From an uncultured Bdellovibrionales bacterium (GTDB lineage Bacteria; Bdellovibrionota_C; UBA2361; JBGSMV01), in assembly GCA_964631745.1 (NCBI GenBank), contig CAZVWV010000022.1, positions 15,640 to 34,295 of the forward strand: a stretch of DNA of 18,656 nucleotides, in the 5' to 3' direction. A program made the position numbers and the translations under genes. Numbering within the stretch: position 1 is the first letter of the stretch; each line of letters starts with the position of its first letter. Below are positions 6,722 through 18,556 of this stretch, piece after piece. Below the pieces are notes generated by a model. The model saw only the letters and a program-made list of their open reading frames with translations. It made no database searches and was not told the DNA's origin.

Positions 6722-7276
6722 TTACTCACGCCCAAAACCGATCTTTCCCTTTCTCCCTCTCTGCATCGGTTCCTTCGGTTGAGCGTTAATTAACTCCCGA
6801 ATGCTATTGAACACCACTTTAAATTGGGCGTCATAACGCCGCTCTAGTTCGTCTAATCGTTTCGCGAACTCTTTGTTACTTGCTAGAATCTGCCGCATCC
6901 GGACAAACGCTCTGATGATCGCTATATTCACATGAATAGCTCTCTCACTATTCAAAACACTGGAAAGCATTGAAATTCCGTGCTCAGTGAACGCGTATGG
7001 CAGGTTTCGTCGGCCAGGCTTACCACTTGAGGTCACAATTTGTGACCGTAAAGCCGTGTATTCTTGGCTAGTTAGCTGAAACATGAAGTCCGCCGGGAAT
7101 CTTTCCACGTTTCGCTTTACAGCCTGTACCAGCGCCTTCGTTCTTACTTGGTAAAGTCTGGCTAGATCCTCGTCCAGCATTACCTTCTCACCTCTAATGA
7201 AGTAAATTGATTGCTCCAGCCGTTCAACAGGTATTACAGAACTGTTCTTTTTATTCATCGTTTCCCAAACTATCAT
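6722..7276 (-). CDS. ORF6N-domain (KilA-N-like / antirepressor-type DNA-binding) protein
   Basis: N-terminal IYFIRGEKVMLDEDLARLYQVRTKALVQAVKRNVERFPADFMFQLT is the ORF6N signature. The ORF is inverted within its cassette and sits next to the family-2 attC. Confidence 0.75.
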   Translation of the reverse strand: MIVWETMNKKNSSVIPVERLEQSIYFIRGEKVMLDEDLARLYQVRTKALVQAVKRNVERFPADFMFQLTSQEYTALRSQIVTSSGKPGRRNLPYAFTEHGISMLSSVLNSERAIHVNIAIIRAFVRMRQILASNKEFAKRLDELERRYDAQFKVVFNSIRELINAQPKEPMQRGRKGKIGFGRE

Positions 7277-7302
7277 GCCATTATCCGCTTAGACAACGCG
7301 GA

Positions 7303-7381
7303 AGATAACCATTGAATTCACGATATTTCGCGCTTTAGAATCAGTTTGGCGCGAAAATCGTGATTCAACAGAACGTTGGAC
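7303..7381 (+). repeat. attC-like site, family 2 copy a
   Basis: GATAACC ATTGAATTCACGATATTTCGCGC ... GGCGCGAAAATCGTGATTCAACA GAACGTTGGAC. The R' GTTGGAC is a perfect GTTRRRY. Confidence 0.65.
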
Positions 7382-7436
7382 TGAGCCGCGCAGTAGCGCG
7401 GAGGATCCTAAGCGAGAATTTGAATCGTAAGAGTAA

Positions 7437-7464
7437 GACCGGCACCGACCGGTCATTTTTTTTT
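7437..7464 (+). terminator. Rho-independent terminator at the 5' end of a cassette
   Basis: GACCGG-CACCGA-CCGGTC hairpin followed by a T9 run. It lies 60 nt after the cassette boundary within a conserved leader (7382-7465). A weaker copy lies at 14433-14515. Confidence 0.6.
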
Positions 7465-7645
7465 GCGAAAAGCGTGAGGATGTGTGCCGGTGGTTCAAGT
7501 CCCATCGCCGCCCCGACCGCCCGAACCTAGTGCCGAACCTAGTGTAGCTGAAAAGTAGAAAAGAATCTTGGCGAAAGTTCCATCCCTGATGGTGTAAAAG
7601 AGACCTGACTAAAGAAACTCATTTACAACCATCAGGGAGGAATTC

Positions 7646-8233
7646 ATGAACGATAAAAAAAGTACGCCACTTAGAGAGAAAATGAAAGCGGATTTAATGC
7701 TTCGGAATTATTCTAAGCCTTCTGAAGAGTTATATCTGTTTCATGTCAGGCGCTTTGCACAACACTATCACAAATCCCCAGGACATCTTGGACTAGACGA
7801 GATCCGGAGCTACCTGACGTACCTGCGCCAAGAAGCCAACGTATCGCAGTCATCGTATAAGCAAACGGTGGCAGCGCTCAAAGACGGCAACGTCTCTTTC
7901 TCCTACAAAGATTACAGAACTAACGAAAAGAAATTGATGACGCTGCCTGCTGTAGAGTTTATTCGGAGATTTCTGCTGCATGTGCTTCCAAACAAGTTCG
8001 TGAGGGTGCGCTACTACGGGTTCCTGACCAGGGCAAAGAAACTTGCCGCTCTGAGCACTATTAGAGAGGCGTTGGAGACCCATTCTCAAGCCCCGCCACC
8101 AAAACCTGCCACTACGCCCCATAGACACTGCTGCCCGGCCTGCAAGCTCGGGAAATTGGTCCACATTGGCCAAGTCCCACGCTGTTCGATTCCAGGCACT
8201 AGTCCACCAGCGCAACATACAGCCCTTTCTTAG
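7646..8233 (+). pseudogene. Degenerate chimeric ORF: tyrosine-recombinase (IntI/Xer-type) SAM-like N-terminal domain joined to the C-terminal segment of an IS91-family (Y2 HUH) transposase
   Basis: Residues 8-80 (LREKMKADLMLRNYSKPSEELYLFHVRRFAQHYH...VSQSSYKQTVAAL) fit the recombinase N-terminal SAM-like domain. Residues about 100-175 (EFIRRFLLHVLPNKFVRVRYYGFLTRAKK ... CCPACKLGKL) fit the Y2-transposase C-terminus with its terminal Zn motif. No catalytic domain sits between them. Confidence 0.45.
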
Positions 8234-8267
8234 CCAATCGCTCTTAGCTATACTAACTTCAATCGTT

Positions 8268-8394
8268 GGAGGCTGCGCGGCCCAGTCCAACGGGGTGTCG
8301 AGCCGCGATTCTCAGGCGAGAACGCTGCGGCAAGTTGGCACTCCTTGGCTGATAATCGCGGCCCAACACTAAACATTATCCCCTTTAGGCAGCC
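8268..8394 (+). repeat. attC-like site, family 3 copy 1; it has an extended outer palindrome
   Basis: GCGCGGCCCA GTCCAAC ... GAGCCGCGATTCTCAGGCGA ... GGCTGATAATCGCGGCCC AACACTAAACATTATCC. About 80% identical to 14966-15086. The 10 nt outside R'' are the reverse complement of the 10 nt that follow R' at the cassette start (7382-7391). Confidence 0.55.
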
Positions 8395-8663
8395 AGTTTT
8401 CTCTTGAGAACCTTAATCTCATTTTCAATCTGTTCAAGTCTCGAGGCAGCCGTCACTTTATCCGACATGCTTTCACTCAGAGTCCTGTTAATTAGCCGCT
8501 GATAAGGAATTCCACTCTCATCAGCCATAGCTCTTAGCTTTGCAAGAGTTTCGGCATTGATATTGATTGTAATTTTTATGCTCTTCTGGCGAGCCATCGC
8601 AGAACGTATTCGCTTGGTTTCAGCCCTATCGATTTTAAGATTTTTTAGGTTTGGTTTTTTCAT
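8385..8663 (-). CDS. brnA: BrnA antitoxin (CopG/RHH-type)
   Basis: MKKPNLKNLKIDRAETKRIRSAMARQKSIKITININAETLAKLRAMADESGIPYQRLIN. Starts at the internal Met of the track ORF and overlaps the end of brnT by about 29 nt. Confidence 0.7.
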   Translation of the reverse strand: MKKPNLKNLKIDRAETKRIRSAMARQKSIKITININAETLAKLRAMADESGIPYQRLINRTLSESMSDKVTAASRLEQIENEIKVLKRKLAA

Positions 8664-8922
8664 TGTATATTCTCCTAAACTCTCGCCATTCGGCCGACCC
8701 ATAAATTCGTACTTTTCCTTCTCGCCTTGTAAACCGAGTCGTAAGTATCTTCCCCGAACTCGATCTCCCCAACCAATAAAAACGCTCCTCATCCTGAGAA
8801 TGCTTATCATCTCTGATGGCAAATCCATCAGGATCGGAAAAAGACTCCGCGGCTTCGGAAAAACTCACCTTGTGCTTCCTAAGGTTTTCTTTAGCTTTGC
8901 CGGCGTCCCACTCGAAATCCAT
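8635..8922 (-). CDS. brnT: BrnT toxin (DUF497 ribonuclease family)
   Basis: MDFEWDAGKAKENLRKHKVSFSEAAESFSDP...DDKHSQDEERFYWLGRSSSGKILTTRFTRREGKVRIYGSAEW matches the BrnT pattern (FEWD..K...N..KHGVSF.EA, HS..EERF). The toxin lies upstream of the antitoxin, as in BrnTA. Confidence 0.8.
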   Translation of the reverse strand: MDFEWDAGKAKENLRKHKVSFSEAAESFSDPDGFAIRDDKHSQDEERFYWLGRSSSGKILTTRFTRREGKVRIYGSAEWREFRRIYNEKTKPKKS

Positions 8923-10268: not shown

Positions 10269-12743
10269 TTGATGGAACCAAATGACGCGAGTTCGGCGAA
10301 GCTCACACGGTATCAGCTTACGCTCATGAAGAAATTCGCTCACTCCATTGCGCCATCTGCAATAAAGGAAAATGTCGAGCAGCTTGTAGCGCTGCGTGAA
10401 CTTTACCTTGAGATTCGAGCAGTATTAGAAGAGCTTGATCTTACCCGCGAAGGCATTCGTTACTTTGCGACCTACGTTTTAAAATCGCCTACTTGGAGGC
10501 TTTCTGCAAGAGAGGACCATGACCGATACTTGCACATGATAACTTTTGTTGCTCATCAGTACTATCAACTTCAAGATATCCTTGTCGATGTTTTGCTCAG
10601 CTCTGTAACGGCAATTAACAACGGCGCACGTCGTGAGCACAAAGATGGTTGCTACGAACAGCGGTCTCAAAAAAATAGCTCCCTTGCAAATGTGATTGAA
10701 ACAGTTGAGAAACTTCTCTCTGGCTATGCTGAGATTCACGATATCTTGCACAAAAAGGGACTACACTCGGATAAAAAAATAGAGCTTATCAAGGCTCTAC
10801 TTGATGAAAATGAAGCTGCTATCCGTAACGCCAGAAAGCATGTCATTAACCTCAAACAGGCATCTCAGCAGGTGGTTGAGAATGATTTCTACGCAATTCT
10901 GGAATCAAAGTCGGTCAAACTTCAAAATAGAGTCGCAGGGATTGTAAAAACGCTTGAGTTTAGATCTGACTGCTCTGATAAGCTGCTCTACAGCGCCATA
11001 TGTCACTATAGAGAGCACGCTACCCTCACTGAATCTGCACCATACGATTTCTTAAGTCCGGTTGAGCAGAATCTCTTGCACAGAGACGGTGGAAAGTTTC
11101 GAGTTCCGCTCTATAAAGTGCTGCTCTTTGGAAGAATCGCTGAAGCAATTCGGGCCGGGACCCTTAACTTAGACCACTCATACAAGTATCGCACTTTAGA
11201 AGAGTATCTAATCGCGCGGTGCGCTTGGGATGAGGGAAAAGATGTCCTCATAGAGCGCGCAAGCCTCCAAGTTGTTGAGAACTGTCCTAAAGTGCTTACC
11301 GATCTTCAAACCCGCCTAGCGCAATATTATCAGCTTACAAATCAGCGAATTTTAGATGGCGGCAATGAATTTGTTTCGGTCAAAAGTACCGGCGCTTATA
11401 CCGTGCAAACCCCGCCAGTAGCCGAGAAGATGGCTCCTGGCCTGCCTGAGTACTTTCCAGAGACTAAATTTATTTCTCTGCTTGAAATCCTTTCCACAAC
11501 CAATCAAGTAACAAATTTTCTAGCAGAATTTAAACGCTCAAAATTAAAGTATAATCGCGCACGACCAAGCGATCGGTCCTTTTTTGCCGGTTTACTCGGA
11601 TTTGGGTGCGGCATCGGTATAAAAAGAATCGCTCAAATCTCAAACCTCATCGACGAAGATGAGCTTGAAAGAACCGTAAACTGGCATTTTTCTTTAGATA
11701 ATGTTGAAGCTGCCAACGATAGAATTTTAGCCTTCATGGATAAGCTTGATCTCCCCTCGGTTTATCTCCAAGACCCAGAGTGGCGGCACACCTCAAGTGA
11801 CGGCCAAAAGGTAGAGGTGGCCGTGCCTTCGCTTAATGCCAATTACTCGTTTAAATATTTCGGCCAAGGTAAGGGCGTGAGCGTCTATAGCTTCATTGAT
11901 GAGAGACATTTTCTCTTTCACTCAACGGTAATTAGCTCAGCGGAACGGGAGGCCGCATATGTAATCGACGGCTTGATGCACAATGATGTTGTACAGAGCG
12001 ATATTCATTCAACTGATACTCACGGCTATACTGAAGTAATATTTGGCGCGACGCATCTTTTGGGATTCATGTTCGCCCCTCGAATCAAGAGTTTAGGGCG
12101 ACAACACCTCTATACCTTTCCTGGCAATACAAAAAAGCTGTACAAAGAAATGAAATACCCTATCCTGCCAGATGGCGTTATCAACATTCAATTAATCGCA
12201 GATAACTGGGATGAAATTCTGCGATTCGTGGCTACCATCAAACTAAAAGAAACCCCTGCTTCGCAGCTATTTAGACGACTTAACTCATACTCAAAATCGC
12301 ACCCTTTATGGGACGCTCTCAAAGAGTTTGGAAAAATTATAAAATCGATTTTCATCCTTCACTACATCGACGATCTCAATCTTCGCCAGGCAGTTGAGAA
12401 GCAGATGAACAAGATCGAAAGTGCTCAGAAGTTTTCAAACGCCGTGGCGTTCGGATCACAAGAATTTAGGCAGGCAGACCGAGAGGAGCAAAATATTGTC
12501 GCTGCTTGTCGCAGGCTTATTAAGAACGCCATCATCTGTTGGAACTACCTATACCTTTCGCAAAAAATTGTAGATGCGCCGAGCCCAGCGCAGAAAAATG
12601 AAATTATTGATGCCGTTCAAAACGGCTCAGTGGTCGCATGGCGGCACATTAATTTCTACGGGGAGTATGATTTCTCAGATGAAAAGCTCAGGGATTCTGT
12701 TGGAATTACTGCCCCTTCGGTTAGGAGTCTTAGAGTGGCTTGA
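10269..12743 (+). mobile_element. tnpA: Tn3-family transposase TnpA, N-terminally truncated relative to full-length (~1000 aa) TnpA
   Basis: 824 aa. Family motifs: RYLHMITFVAHQYYQLQDILVDVLL; SSDGQKVEV; HSTDTHGYTEVIFGATHLLGFMFAPRIKSLGRQHLYTF (DDE region). The first ~170 aa, the N-terminal DNA-binding region, are absent. No resolvase or res site nearby. Confidence 0.85.
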
Positions 12744-13172: not shown

Positions 13173-13233
13173 ATATATGTGAGTTTACCTTTAGTCAATG
13201 GAGGCGCCAAGGTCATATTGCAACAACGGTGCT

Positions 13234-13330
13234 GGCTAACAATTGAATTCACGAGATTTCGCGCCACTACCTTTAGTAGTTGCTTTGACATCCAGTTGGC
13301 GCGAAACTCCTGATTCAACATCACATTATG
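13234..13330 (+). repeat. attC-like site, family 2 copy b
   Basis: GGCTAAC AATTGAATTCACGAGATTTCGCGCC ... GGCGCGAAACTCCTGATTCAACA TCACATTATG. Variant R' is CATTATG. Confidence 0.6.
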
Positions 13331-14364: not shown

Positions 14365-14432
14365 GCGCATAACAACGCAATCAATAGACATTTTGCTTCG
14401 CAAAATGCTATTGATTGCGCGATACGTTGGAC
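14365..14432 (+). repeat. Short attC-like site (~68 bp), family 7
   Basis: GCATAAC AACGCAATCAATAGaCATTTTGC ttcg GCAAAATGCTATTGATTGCGCGAT ACGTTGGAC. Perfect R' GTTGGAC. Extra base in the left arm. Confidence 0.7.
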
Positions 14433-14515
14433 TGAGCCGCGCTGGCGCGCGGAGGGGTGTAATTGAAACATTTATGGTTGAATTGGAATGATTCGTAAGA
14501 GACGGTCATTTTTTG
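14433..14515 (+). repeat. Conserved cassette-start leader (second copy) with CCGCGC-N4-GCGCGG hairpin and a degenerate terminator
   Basis: TGAGCCGCGCTGGCGCGCGGAGG...GAATTGGAATGATTCGTAAGAGACGGTCATTTTTTG, against 7382-7465 TGAGCCGCGCAGTAGCGCGGAGG...GAATTTGAATCGTAAGAGTAAGACCGGCACCGACCGGTCATTTTTTTTT. Confidence 0.6.
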
Positions 14516-14965
14516 TATACGAGATTAGGTGAAACGCCACTTCATGGCGCTGAAGGCGTCTTGCCTGACTTTTAATTGCGAATAGCGAGAAGCCTACTAA
14601 TTTCACTTGATATCTTTTGAAGAGCTGGCAGCATTGCTTCCCAAAAAGAGAAGCGGGCCTGTCGCGACTGCTTACTTACGTGCAGTCAGGAATGGAGATT
14701 CCTTTTTTACCGCCAGGGATGGCGGCGCCGCTTTAGACATAAACTGAGAGCGCGAATTGTGCTCAGACTCGGTGGGTAGGCCGAAGGCTTTTTGAAAGAA
14801 AAGCTATATTTCTTGGGGTGGGTTGTGCCTAATTGCAAAACTGAGAGATTTTTTATTACGTTAAATCAAATAGTTATTACTCTCCACATAAAAAACGCTG
14901 ACCAATCCCCATAGGCATAATCAGGCGTTGATTAACTATCTGGTTCCTTCAATAATCAAACCATT

Positions 14966-15086
14966 GTAGGCAGCGCGGCACAGTCCAACCGGGTGTCGAG
15001 CCGCGCTTCTCAGGCGAAGTTGCGGCACTGACTTCTCCCGTTTTGGCTGAGAACCGCGGCCCAACACTAAACATTAGGCAGACAGA
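14966..15086 (+). repeat. attC-like site, family 3 copy 2
   Basis: GCGCGGCACA GTCCAAC CGGGTGTCGAGCCGCGCTTCTCAGGCGA ... GGCTGAGAACCGCGGCCC AACACTAAACATTAGGCAG. Confidence 0.55.
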
Positions 15087-16778: not shown

Positions 16779-16879
16779 GGTTAACCACCGAGTTCTCCCG
16801 ACAGCAGGGCCACGATCATTAGTGGTAGTTCGAATTGACTAAGAAGCCCCGCTGCGGGAGACTCGGCAAAACGTTATGT
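16779..16879 (+). repeat. attC-like site, family 1 copy D (last attC of the array)
   Basis: GGTTAACCA CCGAGTtCTCCCGACAGCaGGGCCaCG ... TTGACTAAGAAGCCCCGCTGCGGGAGACTCGGCAAAAC GTTATGT. The R' overlaps the pepD stop codon. Confidence 0.75.
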
Positions 16880-18556
16880 GCGCTGACAAAGCTCACCTAG
16901 AAGTCCGACCAATCCGTTGAGGAAAGGCGGTACTGAACGCAACACCACACATTCGCGTAAGCCGTGAGCCCCAAGAATGGTGGGGCCTCTAGAATCTATC
17001 TCAAGCTCTGGATAAGCAGCTCTGGGAAAAGCAAACTCTAACCCACAGTGAGCTCCCTTGACGCGGGCCGGTTGGCCGCTATGAAGTTTTCCATGAGCAC
17101 GTTGAGCTATTTCAAGCAAAGAGCTGGATTCCCGCGGAGGTGACAATGGATATGTCTTTCCAAACTCAAATCTAAATTCACTATTTCGTAGTTCCGTTAG
17201 TATCGGCTCTTGCACTGACTCAATGCCTCCAGGTCGGTTGGATCGAGTCATGGTGAGCAGATTTACAGCATCATTCGTAGTTGAACTCAGGCTCCATGTA
17301 TTACTAGTAGCAACAAAGTCTTCGACTCCGTCCGGCAAAAATGCGGGAATTTCTGAGGCTCGCTCAATCACTCCATCAGCCATCGAACTTACGAGGTTCT
17401 GAAGTTTCCGCAAGAATCCAGAATCCATCACAGGGGGGAAAACAGGCTTTTTACTATCTTCGACTATTTCCACCTGAACAGAAATGTCATCTCCCTCGAG
17501 CTGTCTCGTTTGACGAGAAAGAGCTCGTTTTACTTGAGCACAAAAATCAGTGGCTTTTCCTTTATGACACCAAACGACCAAGGTAGCATCTGTGGGAATT
17601 GAACTTCGGCCAAGCCCTCCTTGTAGCGAAGCAAATCGAATTCCCTCGATATCAACGCCGTCTCCCAATGCTTCAAATAGAATCTTCTGCGCGTTGCCAT
17701 GGCCTTTATCAACATCCAAGCCACTGTGACCACCTTTCAAGCCAGTAAGAGATATATTAACAGGAACTTCATTTTCCGAACGCTCGTCACGAGACACGGG
17801 GAGTGTTATTTTTAAGTCTCTCCCTCCAGCTGCACTTATGAAGATGCCTTCTTCCTCCATGTCGAGATTGATCCAATATCTGCGCTGTACATCAGGATCT
17901 GATACGGTGCGAAGAAGGCCATAATCTAGTCCCTTTATGCCTTGCATGTCGCCCTCTTCGTCAGAGGTGAAGACAATTTCCAACGGCGGATGATCTATTC
18001 CCGGGGTCTGAAGCACAGCAAGAATGGCGCTCAGTGACAGATTGTTATCAGCCCCTAATGATCCTTCCTGTGCATATAGTACCCTCTCGCGCCTGCCTCG
18101 CTCAATCTCCCTGGACTCTACTGCTAATGTTCGCTTACAGCCAGCGTCAAAACCTTCGTAGCGCATATCAACAATGTCCATATGAACCTGTAAAACACTT
18201 GGGTCAGCGCCAACTCCACTCCCTCTTCCATCTGCATATAGAATCGCGTTGCCGACTTTGTCGATCTTCATCTGTCGAACCGGTATCAATCCGAGGGAGC
18301 CATCGTTGTAGTGCGGAAAAGCTAGCTGGGCGACATACTCTCGAACATGCCTTTCGTGACCTGACCTTCTGTCTAGTTGGCTGAGCGAGGCGAAGTGCGC
18401 AAACGTGGTCGTGCAAAGTTTCGTCGGGCAAAATGGCAGTAACTCTGCGGCCAATTGTCCGGTAAGAAGAGGGGATTCGGCCATCTGCTGAGCCAATTGC
18501 TGAGCTTGAGTGAATGAGGGCAGTTCTAGTCCAGGCAAATTGAATCCTCCGCGCAA
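16874..18556 (-). CDS. pepD: Aminoacyl-histidine (Xaa-His) dipeptidase PepD, M20 family
   Basis: VLQVHMDIV, LGADNNLSLSAILAVL...PLEIVFTSDEEGDMQG, LKGGHSGLDVDKGHGNA and HCGLEFAFP...YPELE...GPTILGAHGLRE align along the whole length with E. coli PepD motifs. Confidence 0.85.
   Translation of the reverse strand: MRGGFNLPGLELPSFTQAQQLAQQMAESPLLTGQLAAELLPFCPTKLCTTTFAHFASLSQLDRRSGHERHVREYVAQLAFPHYNDGSLGLIPVRQMKIDKVGNAILYADGRGSGVGADPSVLQVHMDIVDMRYEGFDAGCKRTLAVESREIERGRRERVLYAQEGSLGADNNLSLSAILAVLQTPGIDHPPLEIVFTSDEEGDMQGIKGLDYGLLRTVSDPDVQRRYWINLDMEEEGIFISAAGGRDLKITLPVSRDERSENEVPVNISLTGLKGGHSGLDVDKGHGNAQKILFEALGDGVDIEGIRFASLQGGLGRSSIPTDATLVVWCHKGKATDFCAQVKRALSRQTRQLEGDDISVQVEIVEDSKKPVFPPVMDSGFLRKLQNLVSSMADGVIERASEIPAFLPDGVEDFVATSNTWSLSSTTNDAVNLLTMTRSNRPGGIESVQEPILTELRNSEFRFEFGKTYPLSPPRESSSLLEIAQRAHGKLHSGQPARVKGAHCGLEFAFPRAAYPELEIDSRGPTILGAHGLRECVVLRSVPPFLNGLVGLLGELCQRT

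What the first reader, a model, noticed from the sequence alone, without database searches (positions are those of the whole stretch)
7583..8233. Chimeric ORF joining a tyrosine-recombinase SAM domain to an IS91 C-terminus, behind an SD-sequestering 10-bp hairpin
The 195-aa ORF joins an IntI/Xer-like N-terminal SAM-like domain directly to the last ~80 residues of a Y2 (IS91/ISCR-type) transposase, with no catalytic domain in between. It is either a deletion remnant of a recombinase-transposase fusion or a domesticated fragment. Immediately upstream, CCCTGATGGT (7583-7592) pairs perfectly with ACCATCAGGG (7629-7638), and the right arm contains the GGGAGG Shine-Dalgarno 7 nt before the ATG. That is a translational-control-like hairpin.
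Basis: partly seen in the sequence, partly recalled or inferred. Interest (0 to 1): 0.5.

Follow-up and report, generated by a model that had tools for sequence, protein, structure and literature searches.

The report
Deletion remnant of an IS91-type transposon
The hybrid gene formed when a deletion of about 1.4 kb inside an IS91-family mobile element fused the start of its integrase gene to the end of its transposase gene; it is an ordinary, catalytically dead transposon relic, and the hairpin in front of it is the element's usual brake on translation.

Summary
ORF 7646-8233 (195 aa) carries a Phage_int_SAM_4 domain (residues 9-79). This is joined to only the last third of the Y2_Tnp profile (positions 122-180 of 183). 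A stable hairpin (7576-7644, z = -6.8) buries the Shine-Dalgarno sequence.

The ORF lies inside a 1,006-bp element (7373-8378). Its ends recur in other genomic contexts (L001, L002, L090, L124/L125) and a second time in this window (14424-15076). Full-length relatives are about 2.4 kb. They carry two separate genes, an integron-like integrase (282 aa) and then an IS91-family Y2 transposase (378 aa).

The window copy lacks about 1,415 bp, from integrase codon 79 to transposase codon 266. The break sits at a microhomology (GCAGCGCTCA / GTAGCTCTCA). All catalytic motifs are gone. Six other SAM_4+Y2_Tnp chimeras in public data have different junctions, so such deletions recur independently.

The terminator and the SD-hiding hairpin are conserved in intact relatives. 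Together they match the leader design shown experimentally for IS200.

Verdict: a non-autonomous internal-deletion derivative of a known kind of insertion sequence, not a recombinase-transposase fusion or a domesticated gene. Interest is low. The only mild curiosity is that copies tend to sit just downstream of hairpins.

The parts
7373..8378 (+). Element A: non-autonomous, internally deleted copy (1,006 bp) of a two-gene (integrase + Y2 transposase) IS91-family insertion sequence
   Evidence: Similarity to L001, which lies in a different genomic context, starts at ACGTTGGACTG and stops at AACATTA. The same left-end start is seen in L002, L090, L124 and window copy B. The full-length relative L124/L125 is about 2.38 kb with the same end motifs.
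7375..7393 (+). Left core repeat GTTGGACTGAGCCGCGCAG, the inverted copy of 8273-8291. It overlaps a GC-rich stem-loop, CCGCGC-AGTA-GCGCGG (7386-7401).
   Evidence: (I1). The motif is kept even in relatives with 35-40% protein identity (GTTGAACTAAACCGC...). IS91-family left ends are reported to carry a conserved GC-rich stem-loop (PMC3189936).
7437..7464 (+). Intrinsic-terminator-like hairpin GACCGGCACCGACCGGTC followed by ATTTTTTTTT. It faces inward and would stop transcription entering from the left flank.
   Evidence: It is conserved, with compensatory stem changes, in L001, L002, L124 and L090 (for example AATCGGC...GCCGATT in L090).
7576..7644 (+). [quoted passage not shown]
   Evidence: z = -6.84; I5. 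SD-containing hairpins are predicted upstream of int in L001, L002, L124 and in six distant relatives whose arms differ in sequence (AACTTGC/GCAAGTT).
7646..7879 (+). Codons 1-78 of the chimeric ORF: the N-terminal SAM-like (core-binding) domain of the integron-like tyrosine recombinase
   Evidence: Pfam SAM_4. The stretch is 74% identical to residues 2-78 of the full integrase P0006. Relatives continue as ...AALRFLYKYTL....
7871..7880 (+). Deletion junction: microhomology GCAGCGCTCA (int) with GTAGCTCTCA (tnp)
   Evidence: Read from the alignment with L001, which keeps 171 bp more. The tblastn matches of int and tnp overlap at 7868-7882.
7880..8233 (+). Codons 79-195 plus stop: the C-terminal third of the IS91-family Y2 transposase (equivalent to L125 tnp residues 267-378), lying after the HUH and YxxxY motifs
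8273..8291 (+). Right core repeat CTGCGCGGCCCAGTCCAAC (inverted copy of the left core)
8295..8378 (+). Right-end (ori-like) hairpin, arms 8295-8320 / 8344-8369, plus the terminal tail TAAACATTA
   Evidence: I2. The segment 8234-8378 is 98.6% identical to L001, against 88-91% for the ORF. The hairpin-plus-tail design is kept in copy B, L124 and the distant group.
14424..15076 (+). Element B: a second non-autonomous copy (653 bp) of the same IS family. It has both ends but no int or tnp coding sequence.
   Evidence: right end 81% and left core 91% identical to element A. tblastn finds no int or tnp remnant there.

Best explanation
The ORF is the in-frame scar of an internal deletion in an IS91-family insertion sequence.

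The parental element is about 2.4 kb. It is organised as: left end (core repeat plus GC-rich stem-loop), inward-facing terminator, leader hairpin that hides the SD, integron-like tyrosine recombinase gene, a 2-4 bp gap, Y2 (HUH) transposase gene, and right end (core repeat, hairpin, tail ...CATTA).

In the window copy about 1,415 bp were lost between integrase codon 79 and transposase codon 266. The break is at a 10-nt microhomology, most likely through replication slippage or template switching (inferred).

The product keeps the integrase DNA-binding SAM-like domain and the transposase C-terminal tail. It has lost the R-H-R-Y catalytic domain, the zinc-binding domain, the HUH motif and both catalytic tyrosines. 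It therefore cannot recombine or transpose DNA.

The element keeps both cis-acting ends, so it is a non-autonomous copy that could at most be moved in trans by an intact relative (inferred).

The hairpin is the parental integrase leader. Together with the upstream terminator it keeps expression low and blocks activation by outside transcription, as shown experimentally for IS200 (here inferred from structure and conservation). In this copy it now controls a dead ORF.
For: Domains:
- The ORF has partial domain matches only.

Full-length relatives:
- They carry int and tnp as separate adjacent genes, with the same end motifs, terminator and leader.
- The L125 transposase scores 410.7 bits on the NCBIfam IS91 model and has Zn_Tnp_IS91 plus a full Y2_Tnp domain.

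Element boundaries:
- They are defined by comparison with independent insertions.

Deletion:
- Microhomology lies at the junction.
- Seven SAM_4+Y2_Tnp chimeras each have a different junction. In Pfam Y2 profile coordinates they start at 122, 73, 25, 37, 70, 56 and 141.
- Three of them are stand-alone ORFs in long contigs, and one of those keeps both core repeats.
- These points indicate recurrent independent deletions.

Timing of the deletion:
- The closest relative of the C-terminal part (L122, 93.6% identical) carries transposase sequence upstream of both the window's and L001's junctions.
- L123 continues the integrase past the junction.
- The low dN/dS (0.18 against L001; 9 synonymous to 3 nonsynonymous changes on the window branch) is therefore best read as divergence while the genes were intact, followed by a recent deletion.

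Cis-acting ends:
- The ends are the most conserved parts (97% and 98.6%, against 77-91% elsewhere), as expected for cis-acting sites.
- A second copy with no int or tnp sequence lies in the same window.

Hairpin and literature:
- Hairpin stability and conservation.
- IS91 starts at its right end, works in trans and yields miniature derivatives (PMC3189936).
- Integron-like recombinases occur in IS91 entries of ISfinder (bioRxiv 10.1101/542381).
- IS200 uses a terminator plus an SD-sequestering stem-loop (PMC4513863).
Against: - No full-length copy more than 95% identical to element A was found, so the deleted sequence is inferred from a relative with 63-66% protein identity (L125).
- No second insertion with the same junction was found, so mobilisation after the deletion is not shown.
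- The ORF is intact and shows low dN/dS. This alone could also mean selection on the chimera.
- The evidence that L122 extends beyond L001's junction rests on about 12 nt at a contig end.
- The promoter of the leader was not located; the consensus scan found none between 7465 and 7575.
- MAFFT-based covariation for the hairpin is weak: only 2 of 17 pairs show changes on both sides. The support comes mainly from independent folds.
Confidence: 0.87

Rival explanations
1. The chimeric protein is a functional, retained product. For example, it could be a trans-dominant regulator or inhibitor of transposition that binds element DNA through the SAM-like domain and interferes through the transposase C-terminal tail. 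This would be analogous to truncated-transposase repressors.
For: The ORF is intact. It keeps its SD, start codon and regulated leader. dN/dS against L001 is 0.18, and window-branch changes are 9 synonymous to 3 nonsynonymous. In-frame SAM_4+Y2_Tnp chimeras recur.
Against: Every chimera has a different junction, and none forms a conserved family. P0001 and P0008 are single-member clusters. In-frame recurrence is an ascertainment effect of searching with a protein. Closer relatives still carry the deleted segments, so the low dN/dS is explained by a recent deletion. The AlphaFold2 model has pTM 0.32, and the conserved strand 119-127 falls below pLDDT 50.
Confidence: 0.07
2. The junction is an assembly or sequencing artefact that joins two parts of an intact element.
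For: The source appears to be a metagenome-type assembly of a poorly sampled lineage. One related contig (L123, 1.4x coverage) looks mosaic.
Against: The overlap at the junction is only 4-10 nt, far below assembler k-mer sizes. An independent data set (L001) shows the same kind of deleted element with a different junction and different flanks. Other chimeras lie in contigs of 6.7-124 kb. The window also holds a second deleted copy.
Confidence: 0.02
3. The ORF belongs to a genuine, undeleted protein family that naturally combines a SAM-like domain with a short Y2-type C-terminal domain.
For: Several database proteins carry both Pfam domains.
Against: The Y2_Tnp match begins at profile position 122 of 183 here and at six other positions in the other proteins. 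Lengths range from 195 to 311 aa. The nucleotide alignment with L001 shows a clean 171-bp gap. All intact relatives have two genes.
Confidence: 0.01
4. The inverted repeat 7583-7593 / 7628-7638 acts at the DNA level, for example as a recombinase or transposase binding site, rather than as an mRNA structure controlling translation.
For: The element encodes DNA-binding recombination proteins, and its ends use hairpins.
Against: The 3' arm always overlaps the SD and the start region of int, even in distant relatives where the arm sequences are unrelated. The repeat lies about 200 nt inside the left end. The 34-nt spacing does not fit a tyrosine-recombinase core site (established knowledge). The terminator-plus-SD-hairpin layout matches IS200 (PMC4513863).
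Confidence: 0.05

Closest known systems
IS91-family insertion sequences that carry an integron-like tyrosine recombinase gene upstream of the Y2 transposase (ISfinder entries cited in bioRxiv 10.1101/542381; annotated example: 'integrase/recombinase y4qK' plus 'IS91 family transposase' on Acetobacter orientalis plasmid pAOF1, AP018516.1)
   Same: Same gene pair and order in the intact relatives. The transposase passes the NCBIfam IS91 equivalog cutoff. The left end has a GC-rich stem-loop and the right end is highly conserved. No target duplication is seen.
   Different: The window copy has lost 1.4 kb and encodes neither enzyme. This lineage has a clear 19-bp subterminal inverted core repeat, whereas IS91 and IS801 are described as lacking inverted repeats (PMC3189936).
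Miniature or truncated derivatives of IS801 (IS91 family) in Pseudomonas syringae (PMC3189936)
   Same: Defective IS91-family copies that keep the essential right end and could depend on a transposase supplied in trans.
   Different: The IS801 fragments are 5'-truncated products of early termination. Here both ends are kept and the middle is deleted, which creates a fused ORF.
IS200 left-end control region (PMC4513863)
   Same: An intrinsic terminator just inside the left end guards against incoming transcription. It is followed by a 5'UTR stem-loop that sequesters the SD of the first gene.
   Different: This is a different IS family with no sequence similarity. Here the controlled gene is the integrase, not the HUH transposase. 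No antisense RNA was examined. Function here is inferred, not measured.
Internal-deletion derivatives of DNA transposons, such as Ds from Ac and KP from the P element (own knowledge)
   Same: Both ends are kept and the internal coding sequence is deleted. Different junctions recur, and truncated in-frame products sometimes result.
   Different: Those are eukaryotic DDE or THAP elements, and KP has a demonstrated repressor function. No function is shown here.

Membership tests
IS91-family transposase (NCBIfam NF033538 / Pfam Zn_Tnp_IS91 + Y2_Tnp) | Whole-protein score above the curated cutoff | tested here: not met
   The window ORF scores 84.4 bits against a cutoff of 125 and matches only profile positions 252-354 of 356. 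The intact relative (L125 tnp) scores 410.7 bits.
IS91-family transposase (NCBIfam NF033538 / Pfam Zn_Tnp_IS91 + Y2_Tnp) | N-terminal zinc-binding domain, HUH motif and the two catalytic tyrosines (YxxxY) | tested here: not met
   There is no Zn_Tnp_IS91 match. In the alignment with L125 tnp and P0075, the window ORF starts after the HxHLH and YLARY motifs. P0002/L001 still keeps YLARY.
IS91-family element (DNA level) | Conserved right (ori-like) end downstream of tnp, and a GC-rich stem-loop at the left end | tested here: met
   The right end 8234-8378 is 98.6% identical to L001 and carries a hairpin. The stem-loop CCGCGC-AGTA-GCGCGG lies at 7386-7401 and is kept in L001, L002, L090, L124 and copy B. 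The feature is described in PMC3189936.
IS91-family element (DNA level) | No target-site duplication | tested here: met
   The flanks at 7373 (...CAACAGA) and 8378 (TCCCCTT...) share no direct repeat. The same holds for L001 and copy B. Boundaries are known to within about 2 nt.
IS91-family element (DNA level) | Specific target tetranucleotide (GAAC/CAAG type) at the junction | tested here: inconclusive
   The four bases before GTTGG are GAAC (A), ATAC (B), AAAC (L001), TCAC (L002), AACC (L090) and GACC (L124). Only an ...AC tendency is visible.
Tyrosine recombinase (integron-like / Xer-like) | N-terminal SAM-like core-binding domain | tested here: met
   Phage_int_SAM_4 at residues 9-79, E = 1.4e-14. 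The best NCBIfam hit is integron integrase, at its N-terminus only.
Tyrosine recombinase (integron-like / Xer-like) | Catalytic domain with the R-H-R-Y residues | tested here: not met
   There is no Phage_integrase match in the ORF. The intact relatives have it at residues 106-267.
Non-autonomous (MITE-like) derivative of an IS | Both element ends kept and no functional transposase | tested here: met
Non-autonomous (MITE-like) derivative of an IS | Several copies with the same internal structure at different sites (proof of mobilisation after the deletion) | tested here: not met
   No second protein or locus with the AAL|KDG junction was found. The rest of the source genome could not be searched.
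IS200-type leader control | Inward-facing terminator in the left end plus a stem-loop that pairs the SD | tested here: met
   Terminator scan; folds; conservation in relatives. This is a computational test only.
IS200-type leader control | Measured repression of translation by the stem-loop | not testable with these tools
   This needs reporter fusions or toeprinting, as done in PMC4513863.

The most novel reading that the evidence does not exclude
The in-frame chimera (integrase DNA-binding domain plus transposase C-terminal tail, still behind its regulated leader) is kept because it acts as a trans-dominant regulator of the intact int-tnp elements. This would be a bacterial counterpart of deletion-derived transposon repressors.
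Probability: 0.06. Interest if true: 0.55.

Novelty: new member of a known kind. Interest (0 to 1): 0.2.

Why it matters
Mainly for annotation. The ORF should be labelled as a pseudogene or remnant inside a defective IS91-family element, not as a new recombinase-transposase fusion. The recurrence of such chimeras in databases (proteins with SAM_4 plus Y2_Tnp) is explained as repeated internal deletions.

The analysis also gives a clean anatomy of a little-studied IS91 subgroup that pairs an integron-like recombinase with a rolling-circle transposase. That anatomy covers the ends, terminator, SD-hiding leader and two-gene operon. It also raises a testable lead: copies tend to lie just downstream of hairpins.

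Tried and rejected
1. A genome-contig scan with the end motif CGTTGGACTGNNCCGCGC returned about 119 mostly chance matches in GC-rich genomes. Only L090 proved related.
2. The exact-protein look-up of the window ORF's contig failed. The cluster look-up gave no names or organism.
3. Plasmid collection: there was no DNA match to the element or to the whole window.
4. Protein-mode hits that looked like further chimeras were not. H5 is an ordinary int plus IS91 transposase pair with the alignment running through the transposase. H1 is a transposase followed by the next integrase.
5. tRNA and Rfam scans were run because 7490-7520 looked like a tRNA T-arm. They found nothing.
6. Taxonomic placement through a 559-aa dipeptidase-like neighbour gave a best hit of only 32% identity.
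7. I considered that the window copy derives from an L001-type copy by a second deletion, which would imply long-term selection on the chimera. I rejected this because L122, the closer relative, carries transposase sequence beyond L001's junction.
8. I considered that the direct repeat CATTATCC (7279 and 8374) is a target duplication. I rejected it because several repeats of similar length and quality occur in the region, and 7290-7370 is a separate repeat unit also present at about 13190-13330.
9. The alignment-based covariation test of the leader hairpin was weak because of indels. I relied on independent folds instead.

Full report
**Observation**

The 195-codon ORF at 7646-8233 exists. Pfam gives two partial matches:
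- Phage_int_SAM_4 over residues 9-79.
- Y2_Tnp over residues 73-131, aligned only to profile positions 122-180 of 183.

There is no integrase catalytic domain and no Zn_Tnp_IS91 domain. NCBIfam agrees. The IS91 transposase equivalog is matched only at positions 252-354 of 356, at 84.4 bits, below the cutoff of 125. The N-terminus weakly matches the first 70 positions of integron-integrase models.

The upstream inverted repeat is perfect over 11 bp (7583-7593 / 7628-7638). The RNA fold of 7575-7655 is far more stable than shuffles (-33.9 kcal/mol, z = -6.84). The helix spans 7576-7644 and contains GGGAGG (7635-7640).

**What surrounds it**

A protein search returned one close relative with the same general architecture: P0002, 252 aa. 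Its contig L001 aligns with the window from ACGTTGGACTG (7373) to AACATTA (8378). Outside these limits the sequences are unrelated. The ORF therefore sits in a discrete 1,006-bp unit that occurs in at least two genomic contexts.

The unit has the following parts:
- A 19-bp core repeat near each end, in inverted orientation (7375-7393 and 8273-8291, one mismatch).
- A GC-rich stem-loop overlapping the left core (7386-7401).
- A terminator-like hairpin with a T-run (7437-7464).
- The SD hairpin.
- A right-end hairpin (8295-8320 / 8344-8369) followed by the tail TAAACATTA.

Against L001, the two ends are the best-conserved segments (97% and 98.6%). The leader is 77% identical, the hairpin 89% and the ORF 88-91%. 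This is the pattern expected of cis-acting transposon ends.

**The intact parent**

L002 carries a full integrase (P0006, 283 aa, 74% identical to the window's N-terminal part). It is followed 4 bp later by an ORF beginning with an IS91-type zinc-binding domain. L002 also has the same left-end motif, terminator and an SD hairpin.

The metagenome scan found L124/L125, a complete element of about 2.38 kb. Its features are:
- An integrase of 282 aa (SAM_4 at 9-89, Phage_integrase at 106-267).
- Two bases later, a transposase of 378 aa (Zn_Tnp_IS91 at 12-102, Y2_Tnp at 142-321). It scores 410.7 bits on the NCBIfam IS91 model.
- The same core repeats and the same right-end hairpin and tail.

Eleven more loci, with 35-40% protein identity, show the same int-then-tnp order and the same core repeat. 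An annotated plasmid example (AP018516.1) has 'integrase/recombinase y4qK' followed by 'IS91 family transposase'. A survey of tyrosine recombinases states that its integron-like subgroup includes recombinases found in IS91 entries of ISfinder (bioRxiv 10.1101/542381). The parent is thus a known kind of two-gene IS91-family element, not a fusion protein.

**The deletion**

Mapped onto L125, the window ORF equals integrase residues 1-78 joined to transposase residues 267-378. About 1,415 bp are missing (L125 2512-3926).

The break lies in a 10-nt microhomology. The integrase side reads GCAGCGCTCA (7871-7880). The transposase side, seen in L001 and L122, reads GTAGCTCTCA or GTCGCTCTCA.

The deletion removed the following:
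- The integrase catalytic domain.
- The zinc domain.
- The HUH motif.
- The YLARY tyrosine motif, which L001's longer remnant still keeps.

The product cannot catalyse either reaction. An AlphaFold2 model has mean pLDDT 69.7 and pTM 0.32. The conserved FVRVRYYGFL strand scores below 50, so the two leftovers do not form one confident fold.

**Is the chimera a family or a recurrent accident?**

Seven proteins combine SAM_4 with Y2_Tnp, and each has a different junction. In Y2 profile coordinates the matches begin at 122, 73, 25, 37, 70, 56 and 141. Lengths run from 195 to 311 aa, and one keeps part of the integrase catalytic domain. Three were checked and are stand-alone ORFs in contigs of 6.7-124 kb. 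One of these (L144) still has both core repeats. These are independent deletions. That they are all in frame follows from finding them with a protein search.

The dN/dS between the window and L001 is 0.18, with dS = 0.34. This could suggest selection on the chimera, but closer relatives argue for a recent deletion instead:
- L122 is 93.6% identical in the C-terminal part. It contains the 171 bp that the window lacks, and its first bases match the full-length transposase (AACTNCGTGGCG) rather than L001's junction.
- L123 matches the window's leader and early int closely and continues into integrase sequence past the junction.
- Window-branch substitutions (9 synonymous, 3 nonsynonymous) fit divergence as a working gene followed by a recent deletion.
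- No second copy of this junction exists in the protein collections.

**The hairpin**

Upstream of int, each of the window, L001, L002 and L124 folds into a long hairpin whose 3' arm contains the SD. Six distant relatives do the same with unrelated arm sequences (AACTTGC / GCAAGTT around GGAGG). An alignment-based count shows little formal covariation because the SD side is constrained and indels disturb the alignment.

The upstream terminator is also conserved, with compensatory stem changes. This two-part layout is what has been shown for IS200: a terminator against impinging transcription and a 5'UTR stem-loop that sequesters the SD and blocks 30S binding (PMC4513863).

I therefore read 7576-7644 as the parental integrase leader's translational brake. 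The structure and its conservation are shown here; the function is inferred. No convincing promoter was found between 7465 and 7575. A relative (L090) has a TATAAT box just after its terminator. A start there would place both arms in the native transcript, as in IS200.

**How it works now**

Element A encodes no active enzyme but keeps both ends. In IS91, transposition starts at the essential right end and stops at the left end. The transposase acts in trans, and defective miniature copies are common (PMC3189936). Element A is therefore best described as a non-autonomous internal-deletion derivative. Whether it has moved since the deletion is not shown.

A second defective copy of the family with no int or tnp sequence lies at 14424-15076. 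This supports the view that the region collects such derivatives.

**Side observation**

Four of six left ends are preceded, 6-15 nt upstream, by a strong hairpin of unrelated sequence (window A, window B, L001, L002; z from -3.0 to -6.4). L124 and L090 are not.

The hairpin next to element A (about 7290-7370) is itself a repeat unit. It is also present, without an element, at about 13190-13330. Both resemble the family's right-end hairpin plus its CAACA... tail. This could mean that insertion occurs next to ori-like hairpins. It was not pursued further.

**Verdict**

But the parent is two genes, and there is no evidence of domestication. This is a new member of a known kind and of low interest.

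Noticed in passing
window 14424-15076: A second, 653-bp defective copy of the same IS family. It has the left core repeat with stem-loop, a decayed terminator, and the right core, hairpin and tail ...AACATTA. Its interior has no int or tnp similarity, so it resembles a MITE.
   Followed up: partly
window 7290-7370 and about 13190-13330; also L001 370-422, L002 40-100, window 14384-14420: Four of six left ends are preceded, 6-15 nt upstream, by a strong hairpin of unrelated sequence (z from -3 to -6.4). The one beside element A is a repeat unit that also occurs alone at about 13190-13330 and resembles the family's right-end hairpin plus CAACA tail. This may reflect insertion next to ori-like hairpins, or head-to-tail arrangements.
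   Followed up: partly
window 7521-7544: A perfect 12-bp tandem duplication, CCGAACCTAGTG x2, lies in the leader of element A. L001 has a single copy.
   Followed up: no
window 7279-7290 and 8374-8385: The direct repeat CATTATCCGCTT / CATTATCCCCTT has its second copy spanning the right terminus of element A. CATTAT(C/G)C also follows the right ends of L124 and L125 and the solo hairpin at about 13325. It is probably part of, or a mimic of, the terminal tail rather than a target duplication.
   Followed up: partly
window 6722-7276 (-), 8385-8828 (-), 10269-12743 (+): The neighbours are mobile-element-type genes: an ORF6N/Rha-like regulator, a CopG/BrnA-like antitoxin, and a Tn3-family DDE transposase ORF of 824 aa, which seems short for that family (own knowledge). 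The region is rich in mobile DNA.
   Followed up: no
window 16874-18556 (-): The 559-aa M20 dipeptidase-like protein has no relative above 32% identity in 5.8 billion proteins, apart from its own record. The host lineage is poorly sampled.
   Followed up: partly
L123 1-1095: This contig matches the window's leader and early int closely (92% over 325 nt overall). It then switches to a diverged int sequence and then to unrelated GC-rich DNA, at 1.4x coverage. It is probably a recombinant or chimeric assembly.
   Followed up: no
L125 3126-3129; L002 1241-1246: In the close group the int stop codon and the tnp start codon are only 2-4 nt apart. This suggests translational coupling, so the SD hairpin upstream of int may limit both proteins.
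   Followed up: no
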